Below are positions 16,955-60,330 of a stretch of DNA of 64,000 bases, one piece after another; position 1 is the first letter of the stretch, and the number at the start of each line of letters is the position of its first letter. The DNA lies in NCBI RefSeq assembly GCF_003018255.1, contig NZ_CP027440.1; one strand, given 5' to 3'. The notes under the pieces were generated by a model. That model was not told where the DNA came from and made no database searches. It was given only the letters and a program-made list of their open reading frames with translations. The DNA comes from Escherichia coli. Lineage in GTDB: Bacteria; Pseudomonadota; Gammaproteobacteria; Enterobacterales; Enterobacteriaceae. A program made the translations under genes and the position numbers.

Positions 16955-17070
<116 letters not shown>

Positions 17071-26670: not shown

Positions 26671-26770
26671 GCCTGATGTGCTACGCTTATCAGGCCTACA
26701 TGATCTCTGCAATACATTGAATTAGCGCGGTTTGTAGGCCGGATAAGGCTTTCACGCCGCATCCGGCATA
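26671..26770. repeat. REP/BIME cluster
   Basis: gcctgatgtgctacgcttatcaggcctac and gtaggccggataaggctttcacgccgcatccggca between convergent uvrB and ybhK. Confidence 0.85.
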
Positions 26771-43004: not shown

Positions 43005-43150
<146 letters not shown>

Positions 43151-53634: not shown

Positions 53635-55856
53635 AGCGTTGGCTCCCCCGGCGGCAACGGTTCAGCCGGGGCCGCGCCCGGAGCTGGCAGCACCTGATAA
53701 GTCTGCACCGGCGCGCGAACACCCGCCAGGTCGAAATGTTTTTTCACCTGGCTGTCGAGGGCAAAGCGGACCGTCCACTGTTTGAGTGGCAGCGTGGTGA
53801 ACGAAACACGCAGTGTAAACGCGGTATTGCTTAAGCCGACAATCCCGGCAAAGTTCGGTTCACCAATAACCAGCCCGCGAATTTCTTCGTTTTCCATCAA
53901 TTCTGCTACCGCATCTTTCAGTGCCTGATTGGCTTTATCAGCATCTTCATGGCGATCAACATCGTAGTTTGCCACTACCGAACCAATACCGCGGACGAAG
54001 TTAGCAAAGGTGGTTATCGAAGACCACGGAATGATGTGATACGCCCCGGTATCCTGGCGCACGCCCACGGAGCGAATCGACATCCGTTCCACAGTGCCGG
54101 TCAACGGCCCGATAGTCACCAAATCTCCAGTGTTCATGCCGTTTTCAAACTGAATAAATACCCCGGTGATAATATCTTTCACCAGCGTTTGCGAACCAAA
54201 AGAGATAGCCAGACCTAATGCCCCGGCACCTGCCAGCAATGGCGCGATATTAACGCCGATTTCCGACAACACAATCATGATGGTGATGGTACTGATAATC
54301 ACCGCCAGCGCGTTACGGAACAGCGTCAGCAGGGTACGCGTACGGGCGCTGGGTAGTGGGCGGCCATGAATATCCGAAGCCAGCCGGTTTTCGATCAAAC
54401 TGGCGAGCACCGTCCAGCCAACCGCCGAGAAGAAAAGAATGAGTGCGATACGGATCAGGATATCTACGGTTTTCTGCCCCGCACCGTTTTGCAGCCAGTT
54501 CCAGAAATCGAATAATCCCCATGCGCTCAACAGCAGCATTACCGCCACGCAGACGGTCAGAATACGCGCCGTTTTCAGCGCCGCCGAAAGCCAGCCATTC
54601 AGCCGTTTTTGCAGCTCCGGATAATTTCGCTGAGTATGTGGCGAGAGGGTGATGGTTTTCGCCAGCCAGCGGGAAAACATACCGGAAACAAATGCTGCGA
54701 TACCAATAATCGCCAGGCTGCGCACCGTTGCACCCATCATAAATTTCAGGCTGTTGCCCGGATCGAACAACGAAAAGAAAAACAGCACGATAAAATAGGC
54801 GCTTGCCAGCCAGTGCCACACCAGCGCAAAGGCGCGGATAAACAAGCTGAAAAAGGCCAGCGAATGCTCCGCAAAGTTGAGCAAATGTTGGGTAATCTCT
54901 TTTTTATTACGAAAGATCAGGTACAACGCCCAGATGGTCATGCACAGCATAATGATGACGTTCGCCAGCGCGCCAATTTGTACATTCACCTGATTAGAGA
55001 TAATCGGCACGGCCACAATCAGGCCATAACCTATCAAACTGCTTAACCAGCTCAGGCGACGGCTCCAGTAACGGGCGGTCTCGTCATGAATCGTGAATGG
55101 GCGCAGCTCCGCCACATTTGGGCAAAAAATCAGGCGTAGTACAGCTTTGAAAAATTCAATCAGGGCAAAGGCGTTGAGAAACAAACTTTGTTGGAAAGCG
55201 ATGGTGCGACTGCCCGCATTCAGGTTGTCGCTTAAAACCTGACCGACAAATAATGTCAGTGCCAGTAACAGCAGGTCGATAATAAACGCCCCGATAATCA
55301 TCGCCGGAAGCTGCAACCAGTTACTGCGCTCACGATTTTTTTGCCGCGCCCACTGGCCCATTTTGCGATACAGCGGAAGTGCGCACAGGCGAATCAGCCA
55401 GTAAAAACCAAACACTAATACCGCTAACATTGAAAAATGGGTCAACGCATTGCTGAAGGTTTGTGGATTAAACGGCTTATGCGGGGAGCCGGTGATATTG
55501 CGATAAAGTTGTCCGAAGCGGGCGGAAAGGGCTTCACCATAATGGCGGCTGACTTCGGTGACTTTTTGCAGCACGGTTTGCTCTTCAACCAGCGTCGGCG
55601 GCACGATCTTCGGTACGGGTTCCGCAGGGGGCGTCGCGGCGACGGTGCGCAACTGGTCGATCAACTCTTTACGTGAGGTGTCATTATCCAGCACATCCGC
55701 CAGTGCACCATAGGCCGCTTTTTTTTGTTCGATATCCGGTTCCGGGGCCGGTTCAGTCGTTGAGTCCGTTGTCGTTGTGGTTGTAACGCCGGGTATGGAT
55801 ACCGCGTGGGCAGGTGCGCCCAGCAGGCAGAAGAGGATGAACAGGATCCACCGCAT
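53631..55856 (-). CDS. ybiO: MscS-family mechanosensitive channel (large, multi-TM)
   Basis: ORF trimmed to [18 protein letters not shown] (signal peptide), 741 aa, with C-terminal MscS core. Confidence 0.9.
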
Positions 55857-55972
55857 GACTCCTCCAGTGAGAAAACAGAGCAAAAAGATAAGTATAGATG
55901 CTGGAGGAGGGGCGATTTTAAATGAGAGGAATCTGGTGTGCCTCCCTTTCGGAGGAAAGGGAGGCTGAGAAG

Positions 55973-56695
55973 TTAAGAGACGTGCTGCAAAAATTCCTGC
56001 AAGCGCTGGCTCGGTGGGTTCTTGATCAACACCTGCGGATCGCCATCTTCCGCAATCCGGCCTTTGTCGATAAAGATCAGGCGCGAAGCTACTTTCTCGG
56101 CAAAACCGATTTCGTGTGTCACGATCACCATCGTCATCCCTTCTTCAGCCAGATCCTGCATAACCTTCAGCACTTCATGGCGCAGTTCCGGGTCAAGAGC
56201 GGAAGTCGGTTCATCAAACAGCATCATTTTCGGCTTCACCGCCAGCGCGCGTGCGATCGCCACACGCTGCTGTTGACCACCAGAAAGTTCGGAAGGGTAG
56301 TGATGTGCACGTTCTGCCAGACCGACTTTCGCCAGCAGCTCACGCGCCAGTTTTTCCGCCTCTTCTTTGTTCGCGCCACGCACGCGTAGCGGACCAAACA
56401 TGACGTTTTCCAGCGCCGTCAGATGCGGGAAGAGGTAAAACTGCTGGAACACCATACCTGCTTCCTGGCGAATCAGGCGCTCGTCAACTTTCGGATCGTT
56501 AACCTTCAGGCCATCGACAATCAGATCGCCGGAAGTGATTTCTTCCAGTTTGTTGATGCAGCGCAGCAGGGTCGATTTACCGGAACCGGACGGCCCGATA
56601 ATCACCACGACTTCGCCCTGAGCAATGTTCAAATCGATATTGTGCAGCACCTGGGTTGGACCAAAATGCTTGGAGACGTTTTTAAATTCAATCAC
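55973..56695 (-). CDS. glnQ: glutamine ABC transporter ATP-binding protein
   Basis: 240-aa ORF with GPSGSGKST and LSGGQQQR. Confidence 0.96.
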
Positions 56696-57351
56696 AGGAT
56701 TTTCATCCTTCTTTCCAGACGACGCAGAATAAAGCTCAGCACCAGGGTAATAATCAGATAGAACACCGCCACGGCGCTCCAGATCTCAAGGGCGCGGAAG
56801 TTACCGGCAATAATTTCTTGCCCCTGACGGGTCAGTTCCGCCACGCCGATAACAATAAACAGCGAGGTGTCTTTAATGCTGATGATCCACTGGTTACCCA
56901 GCGGCGGCAGCATACGACGCAGTGCCAGCGGTAAAATGACGTAGCGAATGGTTTCCCAACGTGAAAGACCGAGCGCCAGTCCTGCTTCACGAAAACCTTT
57001 GTGAATAGACAGCACCGCACCACGCGTGATTTCCGCAATGTATGCGCCGGAGTTGATCATGATGGTGACCACCGCCGCAGTAAATGGGTCGATGCGTAAG
57101 TCGTTAAATGCCATCGGCAGGGCGAAATAGATAAACATCACCTGGACGACGATAGGTGTGCCGCGGATCACTTCAATAAAGACCAGCGCGACGTGGTTGG
57201 CTATCCAACCACCGAAGGTGCGTGCAAAACCTGCCAGCAATCCGATCACCAGGCCGCCAGCCAGACCGAGGACCGAGATCCACAGGGTCATTTTGGCACC
57301 TTCAATCAGAAGCGGAATGGCAGGCCAGATGGCACTCCAGTCAAACTGCAT
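56692..57351 (-). CDS. glnP: glutamine ABC transporter permease
   Basis: 219-aa membrane ORF; overlaps the glnQ start. Confidence 0.95.
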
Positions 57352-57399
57352 ATGTTGTTCCTGTTACCGTGGTGTAAATAATCAAATTCAGGGTAATTA

Positions 57400-57480
57400 A
57401 TGGCCCCGGAGCGGGTTTGCGCCCCTCACCCTAATCCTCTCCCCAGAGGGGAGAGGGAACTGCCAGTGCGCCTTACAGGC
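57400..57480. repeat. GC-rich hairpin-containing intergenic repeat between glnH and glnP
   Basis: gcccctcaccctaatcctctccccagaggggagagggaactgcc with stem cctctcccc/ggggagagg; family (boxC- or REP-related) not resolved by eye. Confidence 0.5.
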
Positions 57481-57489
57481 GTAGCGTTA

Positions 57490-58251
<762 letters not shown>

Positions 58252-58275
58252 CTATCCACGGGACGATCCCCTGCG

Positions 58276-58407
58276 TGACATTCACATATATGAAAAAATC
58301 GTGCCAGTTTTGCAACTCATTGATTTTTCGAGATGCGGCAAAAACGTGATGCACGATTTATAGGGCAATACCCTGAAGATGCACCATTCTGGGGCACCAA
58401 ACTGGTG
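58276..58407 (-). promoter_or_regulatory. glnH regulatory region: sigma-54-type promoter and two overlapping NtrC sites
   Basis: Minus strand reads CTGGCACGATTTTTTCATATATG (TGGCAC -24 element with a weak -12); upstream TGCACCATTCTGGGGCA and GCACCAAACTGGTGC fit the NtrC palindrome. Confidence 0.6.
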
Positions 58408-58572
58408 CGCTAAAATTGTGCACTCAACACAGTGATTATTTAGCGTAAAACCTGATGAAAAAACAATCTTTATGTAACGATTGTGTGATGATGTGGATAC
58501 AAAAAATTTACTTAATCAGCTGAAGATAGCAGATGGATGCACTAAATAAGTGCGTTGAGGCGGGCTACAAAA

Positions 58573-58600
58573 CAAAACGGCCTCCTGTCAGGAAGCCGCC
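58573..58600 (-). terminator. rho-independent terminator after dps
   Basis: Minus strand ggcggcttcctgacaggaggccg followed by ttttgtttt. Confidence 0.6.
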
Positions 58601-58639
58601 TTTATCGTGTACTAAAGTTCTGCACCATCAGCGATGGAT

Positions 58640-59317
<678 letters not shown>

Positions 59318-59404
59318 TTATTTGCTCGCCAGGAATTTTCGGAATAAATATGCTTTTGCATAATTCGATATATAAAGACGGTGTAGAGGAAAAGTAGCGA
59401 TAAA

Positions 59405-59434
59405 TTCTGCATGGTTATGCATAACCATGCAGAA
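59405..59434. repeat. perfect 30-bp palindrome; likely rhtA terminator in the far-upstream dps region
   Basis: ttctgcatggttatgcataaccatgcagaa lies 9 bp downstream of the rhtA stop and is followed on the minus strand by tttatcgctactttt. Confidence 0.6.
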
Positions 59435-59442
59435 ATGTAAAT

Positions 59443-60330
59443 TTAATTAATGTCTAATTCTTTTATTTTGCTCTCTTTGCGTACTGTCAGCGTAGAACCC
59501 ATTGAAGCGGCGATAATTGCGCCGAGCGCCAGCAGCTGTATGGGTGTCAGTGTTTCTCCGAGGAAAATCATCCCGGAAACGGCAGCCAGTGCCGGTTCCA
59601 TGCTCATCAGCGTACCAAATGTCCGCGTTGGCAAACGGGTGAGGGCAATCATTTCCAGCGAATAAGGCAGAGCGGTCGAGAGAATAGCGACCGCCAGACC
59701 CAATGGAATAACCGACCAGTGCCAGAGTGCTTCACCAGCCTGAAGCGCTCCAATTGGCACGAAAATTAACGCTGCAATCAACGAACCAATTGCCACCGTC
59801 GCAGGGCCATGTTCCGCTCCTGCGCGTTGCCCACTTAAAATGTAAATAGCCCAACAAGCCCCTGCTCCCAGTGCCAGCGCACAGCCGGTTAAATCGACAT
59901 GGGAAACGTCTTGCCCCAGCGGTAGCAGGAACCACAGACCAAGAGCCGCCAGAACAACCCAGACGAAATCTACCGGGCGACGAGAAGAGAACAGCGCCAC
60001 CGCCAGTGGTCCGGTGAACTCCAGCGCCACCGCAATACCCAGCGGTACCGTCTGAATAGAAAGATAAAAAAGATAATTCATCCCCCCCAGCGAAACGCCG
60101 TAAAACAACAGCGGTAACCGCTGCTCTTTGGCAAAGCGCAGTCGCCATGGCTTAAAGAACGCGATGAGGATCAGCGTTCCTAATGCCAGACGCAGCGCAG
60201 TGACACCCGGTGCGCCCACCAGAGGAAAAAGTGACTTAGCTAACGAGGCTCCACCCTGAATAGACGCCATGGCAACGAGCAATATGACTATTGGTAACCA
60301 GACCGGCATTTTACGTAATGAACCAGGCAT
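59443..60330 (-). CDS. rhtA: threonine/homoserine exporter (DMT superfamily)
   Basis: ORF trimmed to MPGSLRKMPVWLPIVILLVAMASIQ (295 aa), 10-TM profile. Confidence 0.93.
   Translation of the reverse strand: MPGSLRKMPVWLPIVILLVAMASIQGGASLAKSLFPLVGAPGVTALRLALGTLILIAFFKPWRLRFAKEQRLPLLFYGVSLGGMNYLFYLSIQTVPLGIAVALEFTGPLAVALFSSRRPVDFVWVVLAALGLWFLLPLGQDVSHVDLTGCALALGAGACWAIYILSGQRAGAEHGPATVAIGSLIAALIFVPIGALQAGEALWHWSVIPLGLAVAILSTALPYSLEMIALTRLPTRTFGTLMSMEPALAAVSGMIFLGETLTPIQLLALGAIIAASMGSTLTVRKESKIKELDIN

What the first reader, a model, noticed from the sequence alone, without database searches (positions are those of the whole stretch)
57400..57480. GC-rich hairpin repeat inside the glnH-glnP intergenic region
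An operon-internal stem-loop (cctctcccc-aga-ggggagagg with GC-rich flanks) between glnH and glnP is a candidate mRNA stabiliser or partial terminator that could set the excess of binding protein over permease.
Basis: seen in the sequence. Interest (0 to 1): 0.25.

Follow-up and report, generated by a model that had tools for sequence, protein, structure and literature searches.

The report
BoxC repeat hairpin between glnH and glnP
The GC-rich hairpin between the E. coli glutamine-transporter genes glnH and glnP is real, but it is one slightly mutated copy of a long-known scattered E. coli repeat (BoxC, also called PIT or TMECO); its proposed role in boosting glnH over glnPQ is plausible but untested, so the finding is largely ordinary.

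Summary
A perfect 9-bp stem with a 3-nt loop (CCTCTCCCC/GGGGAGAGG) sits at 57436-57456 in the 138-nt glnH-glnP spacer. The operon is on the minus strand.

The hairpin is the core of a 58-nt BoxC / PIT / TMECO repeat (57414-57471, minus strand). A profile built from 10 other MG1655 copies hits it at E=4e-12. It differs at 2 of 36 core positions from the commonest type, so it fails the strict published pattern and is missing from the published list of 23 copies.

This copy is present in 5401 of 5426 complete E. coli genomes. Sister Escherichia lineages carry a REP-like hairpin in the same place.

All 79 enterobacterial glnH-glnP spacers examined hold a stable hairpin (-15.6 kcal/mol or stronger). 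The hairpins come from unrelated sequence families: REP-like, GGGGCG plus T-run, BoxC and others. So the position appears to need a hairpin, which fits an mRNA-decay barrier protecting glnH.

It is not a canonical terminator. There is no U-tract, and PIT elements are reported to have shown no terminator activity. A genome-wide decay screen analysed glnHPQ but did not list it as differentially decaying.

Verdict: a known repeat, with a plausible but unproven function.

The parts
57414..57471 (-). Full BoxC / PIT / TMECO repeat unit: left flank, three blocks, right flank
   Evidence: An nhmmer profile built from 10 other MG1655 BoxC copies aligns to 57471..57414 with E=4.4e-12 and 41.4 bits; it is the only copy in the window. 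Alignment with 11 MG1655 copies shows shared flanks beyond the 36-nt core.
57422..57457 (-). 36-nt three-block core: CCCTCTCCCC-TCT-GGGGAGAGGA-TTA-GGGTGAGGGG (TMECO 'type A', TTA second loop)
   Evidence: Differs at 2 of 36 positions (G6->T, G23->A) from the commonest Table 1 sequence of Holder 2015, CCCTCGCCCCTCTGGGGAGAGGGTTAGGGTGAGGGG. The strict published pattern does not match it.
57448..57456 (-). 5' arm of the hairpin on the mRNA (CCUCUCCCC)
   Evidence: Invariant in the 9 full-length E. coli alleles sampled.
57445..57447 (-). Hairpin loop (UCU in this strain)
   Evidence: Varies among E. coli alleles: TCT, TAT or GCC.
57436..57444 (-). 3' arm of the hairpin on the mRNA (GGGGAGAGG)
   Evidence: Invariant in all 10 sequences sampled.
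57422..57431 (-). Third G-rich block (GGGTGAGGGG): the potential triplex third strand, or the alternative pairing partner of the C-rich arm
   Evidence: Variable among E. coli alleles: GGGTGAAGGG in ST131-type strains, plus 1-nt indels.
57467..57483 (-). Small strain-specific hairpin just after the glnH stop (CGCCUGUAAGGCG); not part of BoxC
   Evidence: Folds in the window strain. The pairing is lost in MG1655 and other alleles (CACCTGTAAAACG).
57352..57385 (-). Conserved glnP translation-initiation region (…UUUACACCACGGUAACAGGAACAACAU); by literature it contains the GlnZ sRNA pairing site just upstream of the SD
   Evidence: Invariant in the 10 E. coli sequences sampled. The ACAGGAA core is conserved at 94% or more across 79 species. 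GlnZ pairing next to the glnP RBS is reported by Walling 2022 and Miyakoshi 2022.
57490..58236 (-). glnH (periplasmic glutamine-binding protein), the upstream gene
56692..57351 (-). glnP (permease), the downstream gene

Best explanation
The hairpin is the inner stem-loop of one copy of the BoxC repeat, also called the PIT element or TMECO triplex motif. This is a 56-60-bp GC-rich imperfect palindrome scattered about 20-30 times in E. coli intergenic DNA. This copy entered the glnH-glnP spacer in an ancestor of E. coli, taking the place of a REP-like hairpin that sister Escherichia lineages still carry, and it is now essentially fixed in the species. It is co-transcribed with glnHPQ, and in the mRNA it forms a stable 9-bp G+C-rich hairpin (-18 kcal/mol) with no U-tract.

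Most likely mechanism (inferred, not shown): the hairpin does not terminate transcription. Instead it blocks 3'-to-5' exonucleases after an endonucleolytic cut in the AU-rich stretch or in glnPQ, including cuts that follow GlnZ sRNA repression of glnP. The glnH segment would then outlive the glnPQ segment. This is the job REP hairpins do in malE-malF and hisJ-hisQ.

My confidence that it is a BoxC copy is about 0.95. My confidence that it acts as a decay barrier of physiological consequence is about 0.4. The single figure given combines the two.
For: Identity. The three-block core matches the published TMECO type A at 34 of 36 positions. A profile HMM from 10 other copies gives E=4.4e-12 over 58 nt, including the family's flanks. 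The spacer finds a median of 11 places per E. coli genome. An orthologous copy in a divergent Escherichia lineage (L015) has the canonical sequence and matches the strict pattern.

Fixation. 5401 of 5426 genomes carry the colinear 241-nt stretch at 95% identity or more. The REP-type allele of L012 has no match in any of them.

Structure. Hairpin -18.3 kcal/mol, element -29.5. Both stems are invariant while the loop and the third G block vary in the E. coli alleles sampled.

Conserved hairpin position. All 79 glnH-glnP spacers from different enterobacterial species have a hairpin of -15.6 kcal/mol or stronger. They belong to unrelated families: 37 REP-like, 22 GGGGCG plus T-run, 19 other, 1 BoxC. 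The median fold z-score is -3.4, and 72 of 79 are below -2.

Context. All 11 BoxC copies inspected lie downstream of at least one gene's 3' end: 6 between convergent genes, 5 between co-directional genes (pstA-pstB and yihS-yihR among them), 0 between divergent genes.

Precedent. In E. coli ABC-transporter operons the binding-protein mRNA is stabilised by 3' structures (Dar & Sorek 2018). GlnZ down-regulates glnP and glnQ, and glnH is not named among the repressed genes. That creates a need for an insulator between glnH and glnP.
Against: No experiment ties any BoxC copy to mRNA stability. Holder 2015 and the work it cites found no promoter or terminator activity, no effect on RNA polymerase, and no functional bias in the neighbouring genes. 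glnQ-glnP-glnH was among the 390 operons analysed by Dar & Sorek but is absent from their list of differentially decaying pairs (LB, exponential phase). Invariant stems in 9 closely related alleles say little, because overall diversity is low and no compensatory change was seen. The conserved hairpin position could instead reflect a tolerated insertion site for palindromic repeats rather than selection for structure. The 79 species are not independent observations.
Confidence: 0.55

Rival explanations
1. It is a neutral or selfish repeat copy with no role at this locus. BoxC simply landed in a spacer that tolerates palindromic insertions, and the hairpin is a by-product of the repeat's own sequence.
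For: No function has been established for the family despite direct tests. The copy is slightly degenerate, with 2 of 36 core changes and altered flanks. glnHPQ was not flagged as differentially decaying. The same spacer hosts REP-like elements and, judging from memory only, possibly ERIC-like elements in other species, as expected for a permissive site.
Against: 79 of 79 species keep a strong hairpin in the spacer, even the shortest spacers (75-90 nt), which have no recognisable mobile repeat but a compact GGGGCG hairpin. The copy is retained colinear in 99.5% of E. coli genomes. The two core changes both favour a plain Watson-Crick hairpin over triplex or G-quadruplex forms.
Confidence: 0.3
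2. It is a partial intrinsic terminator or attenuator that lets only a fraction of polymerases continue into glnPQ.
For: In many other genera the hairpin at this position is followed by a T-run (23 of 79 have at least 5 T in 8), which looks like a leaky terminator. BIME/REP elements are cited as able to attenuate transcription (Espeli 2001, cited in PMC2267715).
Against: In E. coli the stem is followed by AUUAGGGUGAGGGG, with no U-tract. The terminator scan finds no site on the minus strand in the spacer. PIT elements are reported to have shown no terminator activity. [quoted passage not shown]
Confidence: 0.08
3. It acts at the DNA level. The three blocks fold into an intrastrand purine-motif triplex (or a G-quadruplex) that stalls polymerases and promotes local rearrangement, as proposed for TMECO motifs.
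For: TMECO oligonucleotides form triplexes in vitro, and TM loci were reported as more rearranged among E. coli strains. One strain (B2.3) has an IS21-like ISEc10 inserted inside the hairpin.
Against: In vivo footprinting did not detect the triplex. This copy has lost a G of block 2. Its third block varies among strains (GGGTGAAGGG, indels) while the hairpin arms do not. The locus is colinear in 5401 of 5426 genomes, so it is not unstable.
Confidence: 0.05

Closest known systems
BoxC repeat (Bachellier et al. 1990s) = PIT element (Hoyne & Maher 2000/2002) = TMECO intrastrand triplex motif (Holder et al. 2015, PMC4666352)
   Same: The same three blocks (CCCTCNCCC, GGGNGAGGG, GGGNGAGGG) and the TTA second loop (type A). 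The same left and right flanks, intergenic location and multi-copy distribution in E. coli.
   Different: There are two core substitutions. G6->T makes the inner hairpin perfectly paired. G23->A breaks the strict pattern and one G-run. The left flank is altered (TGGCAGTT where the family has GGACGGTC). The copy is not in the 23-copy Table 1 of Holder 2015. This copy sits inside an operon and is stably inherited, whereas the family was described as associated with variable loci.
REP / BIME (PU) elements acting as intercistronic mRNA stabilisers (malE-malF, hisJ-hisQ; Newbury/Higgins 1987-88, cited in PMC5927463 and PMC2267715)
   Same: It works like these, by inference. It is a GC-rich extragenic palindrome, it is transcribed, and it lies just downstream of the binding-protein gene of an ABC importer operon. 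REP-like hairpins occupy the very same position in sister species.
   Different: It is not a member. The REP consensus is absent from the spacer although REPs occur elsewhere in the window. Stabilisation by BoxC has never been shown.
Protective 3' RNA structures of differentially decaying operons (Dar & Sorek 2018, PMC5927463)
   Same: The proposed mechanism is the same: a stable structure at the 3' edge of the stabilised upstream gene, with the binding-protein subunit favoured.
   Different: glnQ-glnP-glnH was analysed there but not reported as differentially decaying under their condition.
Rho-independent (intrinsic) terminator
   Same: A GC-rich stem-loop downstream of a stop codon. Counterparts at this position in other genera do carry T-runs.
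   Different: There is no U-tract after the E. coli stem and no hit in the terminator scan on the transcribed strand.

Membership tests
BoxC / PIT / TMECO | Three blocks CCCTCNCCC - N3-6 - GGGNGAGGG - N3 - GGGNGAGGG (published consensus, PMC4666352) | tested here: inconclusive
   Blocks 1 and 3 and both loops fit. Block 2 is GGGAGAGGA, one mismatch, so the exact pattern fails. 34 of 36 core positions equal the commonest Table 1 sequence. The orthologous copy in L015 fits exactly.
BoxC / PIT / TMECO | Homology over the whole ~56-nt unit, including flanks outside the triplex core | tested here: met
   A profile HMM from 10 other MG1655 copies gives E=4.4e-12 and 41.4 bits, aligned over model positions 5-62 = window 57471-57414.
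BoxC / PIT / TMECO | Multi-copy, dispersed, strictly intergenic in E. coli | tested here: met
   The spacer finds a median of 11 and up to 24 places per genome across 5425 genomes, with 60868 of 60890 places on chromosomes. All 11 MG1655 copies inspected are intergenic.
BoxC / PIT / TMECO | Ability of the G-rich strand to form an intrastrand purine-motif DNA triplex | not testable with these tools
   This needs CD/NMR or chemical probing. The G23->A change and the perfect Watson-Crick inner stem would be expected to weaken the triplex (inference).
REP / BIME | REP consensus GCCKGATGCGRCGY...RCGYCTTATCMGGCCTAC | tested here: not met
   The 3' half of the consensus, with up to 3 mismatches allowed, gives 10 hits in the window and none in 57352-57489.
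Intrinsic terminator | GC-rich stem-loop immediately followed by a U-tract on the transcribed strand | tested here: not met
   No minus-strand terminator-like site lies in the spacer, and the stem is followed by ATTAGGGTGAGGGG.
Rfam RNA families | Match to any curated covariance model | tested here: not met
   The only overlapping hit is a chance-level one (whalefall-1, 15.2 bits against a gathering score of 37, E=3.1).
Operon-internal mRNA stabiliser (functional class) | Upstream segment has a longer half-life than the downstream one, with RNA 3' ends at the foot of the structure | not testable with these tools
   Only indirect evidence is available: glnQ-glnP-glnH was analysed but not listed as differentially decaying in Dar & Sorek 2018.

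The most novel reading that the evidence does not exclude
The glnH-glnP spacer has a selected position for a hairpin that different enterobacterial lineages fill with whatever palindromic repeat is at hand: a terminator-like hairpin, REP or BoxC (possibly ERIC, judged from memory only). In E. coli a BoxC copy would then have been domesticated, with two point changes that favour a plain hairpin. It would serve as the decay barrier that keeps glnH mRNA alive while GlnZ and RNase E remove glnPQ. That would be the first demonstrated cellular function for a BoxC/PIT element.
Probability: 0.3. Interest if true: 0.45.

Novelty: already known. Interest (0 to 1): 0.2.

Why it matters
As it stands the finding matters little. 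The hairpin is a copy of a repeat family described in the 1990s, in the best-studied bacterial genome.

Two modest points could be of use. First, this copy, and presumably other slightly degenerate ones, is missed by the strict TMECO pattern, so published copy counts are lower bounds. Second, the cross-species comparison gives a clean natural experiment. The same spacer always carries a strong hairpin, but from unrelated repeat families, directly upstream of a validated sRNA target site. If the hairpin proves to be a decay barrier, it would give BoxC its first function. It would also show how 'junk' palindromic repeats are interchangeable parts for setting subunit ratios in ABC-transporter operons.

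Tried and rejected
- Rfam scan of 55500-59500 at permissive thresholds found no family.
- It is not a REP/BIME: the consensus is absent from the spacer although present elsewhere in the window.
- It is not an intrinsic terminator, and there is no sigma-70-like promoter in the spacer: 0 promoter-like sites and no minus-strand terminator-like site.
- I searched the 5426 E. coli genomes for the alternative REP-type allele seen in L012 to test for polymorphism; there was no match.
- I looked for published transcript evidence. Mao 2007 (PMC1865078) has no northern or terminator data for the spacer. No paper combines glnH with Term-seq apart from the GlnZ paper. In Dar & Sorek's supplement the operon was analysed but is not in the differential-decay list.
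- Compensatory-change analysis was not possible. The stems are invariant in the E. coli sample, and the hairpins of other species are not homologous, so they cannot be aligned.
- The mechanical 166-aa ORF at 57400-57900 (+), antisense to glnH, was ignored as an artefact of ORF listing.
- I could not read Hoyne & Maher 2000/2002 or Bachellier's BoxC list directly. I therefore could not check whether this copy is in their catalogues.

Full report
**1. The observation**

The window is E. coli. glnH (57490-58236), glnP (56692-57351) and glnQ (55973-56695) are all on the minus strand (ORF list; MG1655 annotation). The spacer is 57352-57489, 138 nt.

The reported sequence cctctcccc-aga-ggggagagg is at 57436-57456. 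It is a perfect 9-bp inverted repeat with a 3-nt loop. A loosened version of the motif occurs once in the window and never in 100 shuffles.

On the mRNA strand the region reads GCGCACUGGCAGUU-CCCUCUCCCC-UCU-GGGGAGAGGA-UUA-GGGUGAGGGG-CGCAAACC. RNA folding energies are:
- 27-nt hairpin: -18.3 kcal/mol (z -2.5)
- 58-nt element: -29.5 kcal/mol
- whole spacer: -50.1 kcal/mol (z -2.6)

The only correction is the strand.

**2. What it is**

Rfam has nothing for it. BLAST of the spacer against 5426 complete E. coli genomes finds the locus itself in 5401, plus a median of 11 (up to 24) places per genome, almost all chromosomal. So it is a dispersed repeat.

The literature search led to Holder et al. 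2015 (PMC4666352). They describe the 'BoxC' palindromic repeat of the 1990s, re-described as the PIT (potential intrastrand triplex) element by Hoyne & Maher and as 'TMECO' by themselves. Their consensus is CCCTCNCCC-N3-6-GGGNGAGGG-N3-GGGNGAGGG, with 23 copies in MG1655.

The glnH-glnP sequence equals their commonest 'type A mm' sequence at 34 of 36 positions. It is not in their Table 1, because the G->A change in block 2 breaks the exact pattern.

I fetched ten other MG1655 copies. The family extends beyond the 36-nt core into shared flanks: left ~GYGCAC-GGACGGTC, right ~GAAMM…CGCAC. Together these form the imperfect outer palindrome of the ~56-nt BoxC. A profile HMM built from those ten copies hits the window once, at 57471-57414 on the minus strand, with E=4.4e-12.

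An independent survey (Cozzuto 2008, PMC2267715) lists BoxC in E. coli as a 50-56-nt family of 22-32 copies with a shared predicted fold. It is not a REP: the REP consensus occurs ten times in the window and never in this spacer.

**3. History of this copy**

The 241-nt stretch from glnP through the spacer into glnH is colinear at 95% identity or more in 5401 of 5426 E. coli genomes.

In nine full-length alleles sampled across that ranking:
- both hairpin arms are invariant;
- the loop varies (TCT, TAT, GCC);
- the third G block varies (GGGTGAGGGG, GGGTGAAGGG, 1-nt indels);
- the first ~23 nt after the glnH stop vary;
- the last 70 nt before glnP are invariant.

One strain (B2.3) has an IS21-like ISEc10 inserted inside the right arm.

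A glnP-anchored scan of one genome per species returned 80 loci.
- A divergent 'E. coli' lineage (L015; glnP DNA 95.6% identical to the window) has a canonical BoxC at the same place, one that fits the strict pattern. The window copy is therefore a point-mutated descendant.
- E. albertii, E. whittamii and another divergent 'E. coli' (L012) instead have a REP-like hairpin, GCCCGGCAG…CTGACCGGGC, in a spacer about 44 nt shorter.
- That REP-type allele matches none of the 5426 E. coli genomes.

**4. The hairpin position is conserved**

I could delimit the spacer in 78 of the 80 loci. Together with the window that makes 79, with lengths of 75-466 nt. Every one contains a hairpin of -15.6 kcal/mol or stronger, with a median of -22.

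The hairpins fall into unrelated sequence classes:
- 37 REP-like (CCCGG…CCGGG; Citrobacter, Enterobacter, Salmonella and others);
- 22 compact GGGGCG-loop-CGCCCC hairpins, usually followed by a T-run (Kosakonia, Cedecea, Buttiauxella, Atlantibacter and others);
- 19 others (long CAGGCCTGCTG palindromes in Klebsiella, among others);
- BoxC only in E. coli.

With the conserved last 30 nt removed, all 79 fold better than dinucleotide shuffles. The median z is -3.4, and 72 of 79 are below -2.

What stays constant in sequence is the stretch just before the glnP start, …CACGGTAACAGGAAC…. Two papers show this is where the nitrogen-starvation sRNA GlnZ pairs to repress glnP. In Salmonella it also lowers glnP and glnQ RNA (Walling 2022 bioRxiv 10.1101/2022.04.01.486790; Miyakoshi 2022 PMC9731577).

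**5. Mechanism**

Shown:
- The element is inside the operon, and no promoter-like or minus-strand terminator-like site lies in the spacer.
- It forms a strong hairpin with no U-tract.

Reported by others:
- PIT elements had no promoter or terminator activity and did not impede RNA polymerase.
- The triplex forms in vitro but was not detected in vivo.

Inferred:
- The hairpin acts as a 3'-to-5' exonuclease barrier at the end of the glnH segment, like REP in malE-malF.
- This matches the general model in which the binding-protein cistron of ABC importers is stabilised by a 3' structure (Dar & Sorek 2018).
- An AU-rich unpaired stretch (57381-57400) follows the element and contains an RNase-E-like GA|AUU. 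This is a sequence observation only.

Three points support the inference:
- The conserved hairpin position described in section 4.
- The location of all 11 inspected BoxC copies downstream of a gene's 3' end, never between divergent promoters.
- The two core changes of this copy. Both favour a simple Watson-Crick hairpin: G6->T removes the G·A mismatch of typical copies, and G23->A removes a G-run needed for triplex or G-quadruplex formation.

Three points count against it:
- There is no direct evidence for any BoxC copy.
- glnQ-glnP-glnH was analysed by Dar & Sorek but is not among their differentially decaying pairs in LB.
- The invariant stems in E. coli carry no covariation signal.

**6. 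Rivals**

- A functionless repeat in a permissive site. I give this about 0.3.
- A leaky terminator (about 0.08). It is disfavoured by the missing U-tract, the negative PIT terminator assays, and the operon's inclusion in a set stated to be filtered against internal terminators.
- A DNA triplex or instability element (about 0.05). It is disfavoured by the 99.5% colinearity and by the variable third block.

**7. Comparison, novelty and verdict**

By whole-unit homology, copy number and location, the element is a BoxC/PIT/TMECO member. It narrowly fails the strict published pattern.

It probably works like a REP stabiliser but is not a REP. The repeat family and the operon are long known, so I rate the finding 'already known'.

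Interest is 0.2. The most novel reading still open is a domesticated BoxC serving as a glnH/glnPQ insulator next to the GlnZ site. I give that about 0.3 probability and moderate interest.

Noticed in passing
window 57352-57385 (minus strand): The last ~30 nt before the glnP start codon are invariant in the E. coli alleles sampled, and the ACAGGAA core is conserved at 94% or more across 79 species. Published work places the GlnZ sRNA pairing site just upstream of the glnP SD. The spacer is therefore bipartite: a variable hairpin module followed by a conserved sRNA-target/RBS module.
   Followed up: partly
window 57467-57483: A small hairpin (CGCCUGUAAGGCG) lies a few nt after the glnH stop in this strain. 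Its pairing is lost in MG1655 and other alleles (CACCTGTAAAACG), so it is strain-specific and probably not functional. glnH also ends in tandem stop codons, TAA TAA (57492-57487).
   Followed up: partly
L092 3140-3160 (E. coli strain B2.3, NZ_CM185023.1): An IS21-like ISEc10 element is inserted inside the right arm of the BoxC hairpin. The region beyond it is rearranged: glnH is no longer adjacent.
   Followed up: partly
L015 56-117 ('E. coli' strain E69, CP089930.1): A divergent lineage (glnP DNA 95.6% identical to the window) carries a canonical BoxC at the same glnH-glnP position, and it fits the strict published pattern. L012, also named E. coli (96.2%), has a REP-like hairpin instead and matches none of 5426 complete E. 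coli genomes. Both may be cryptic Escherichia clades.
   Followed up: partly
L063 2885-2961 (Enterobacter sp. kpr-6): An inverted pair of BoxC cores (type A plus type B) sits about 730 nt downstream of the glnP match, roughly where glnQ should end by analogy with E. coli. So the family exists outside Escherichia, apparently at the other end of the same operon.
   Followed up: no
L008 1496-1530 (MG1655 pstA-pstB) and L009 1453-1487 (yihS-yihR): Other BoxC copies also lie between co-directional genes, one of them inside another ABC-transporter operon (pstSCAB). In pst the C-rich strand is the one transcribed, so orientation relative to transcription is not fixed.
   Followed up: partly
window 17002-17050, 26683-26750, 43062-43130: Paired matches to the REP consensus in inverted orientation (BIME-like) occur elsewhere in the window.
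   Followed up: no
L089 (Serratia sp. H1w, 232-nt spacer) and L041 (Intestinirhabdus alba, 466-nt spacer): These glnH-glnP spacers are much longer and carry long extra palindromic inserts. The L089 insert (…CCCCAGGAGCTTAC…GTGACTGGGGTGAG…) resembles an ERIC element from memory; this was not tested.
   Followed up: no
window 58574-58602 (minus strand): A strong terminator-like hairpin with a T-run (13 pairs) lies downstream of dps and upstream of the glnH promoter region. It also gives weak, sub-threshold Rfam hits (ctRNA_p42d, STnc70).
   Followed up: no
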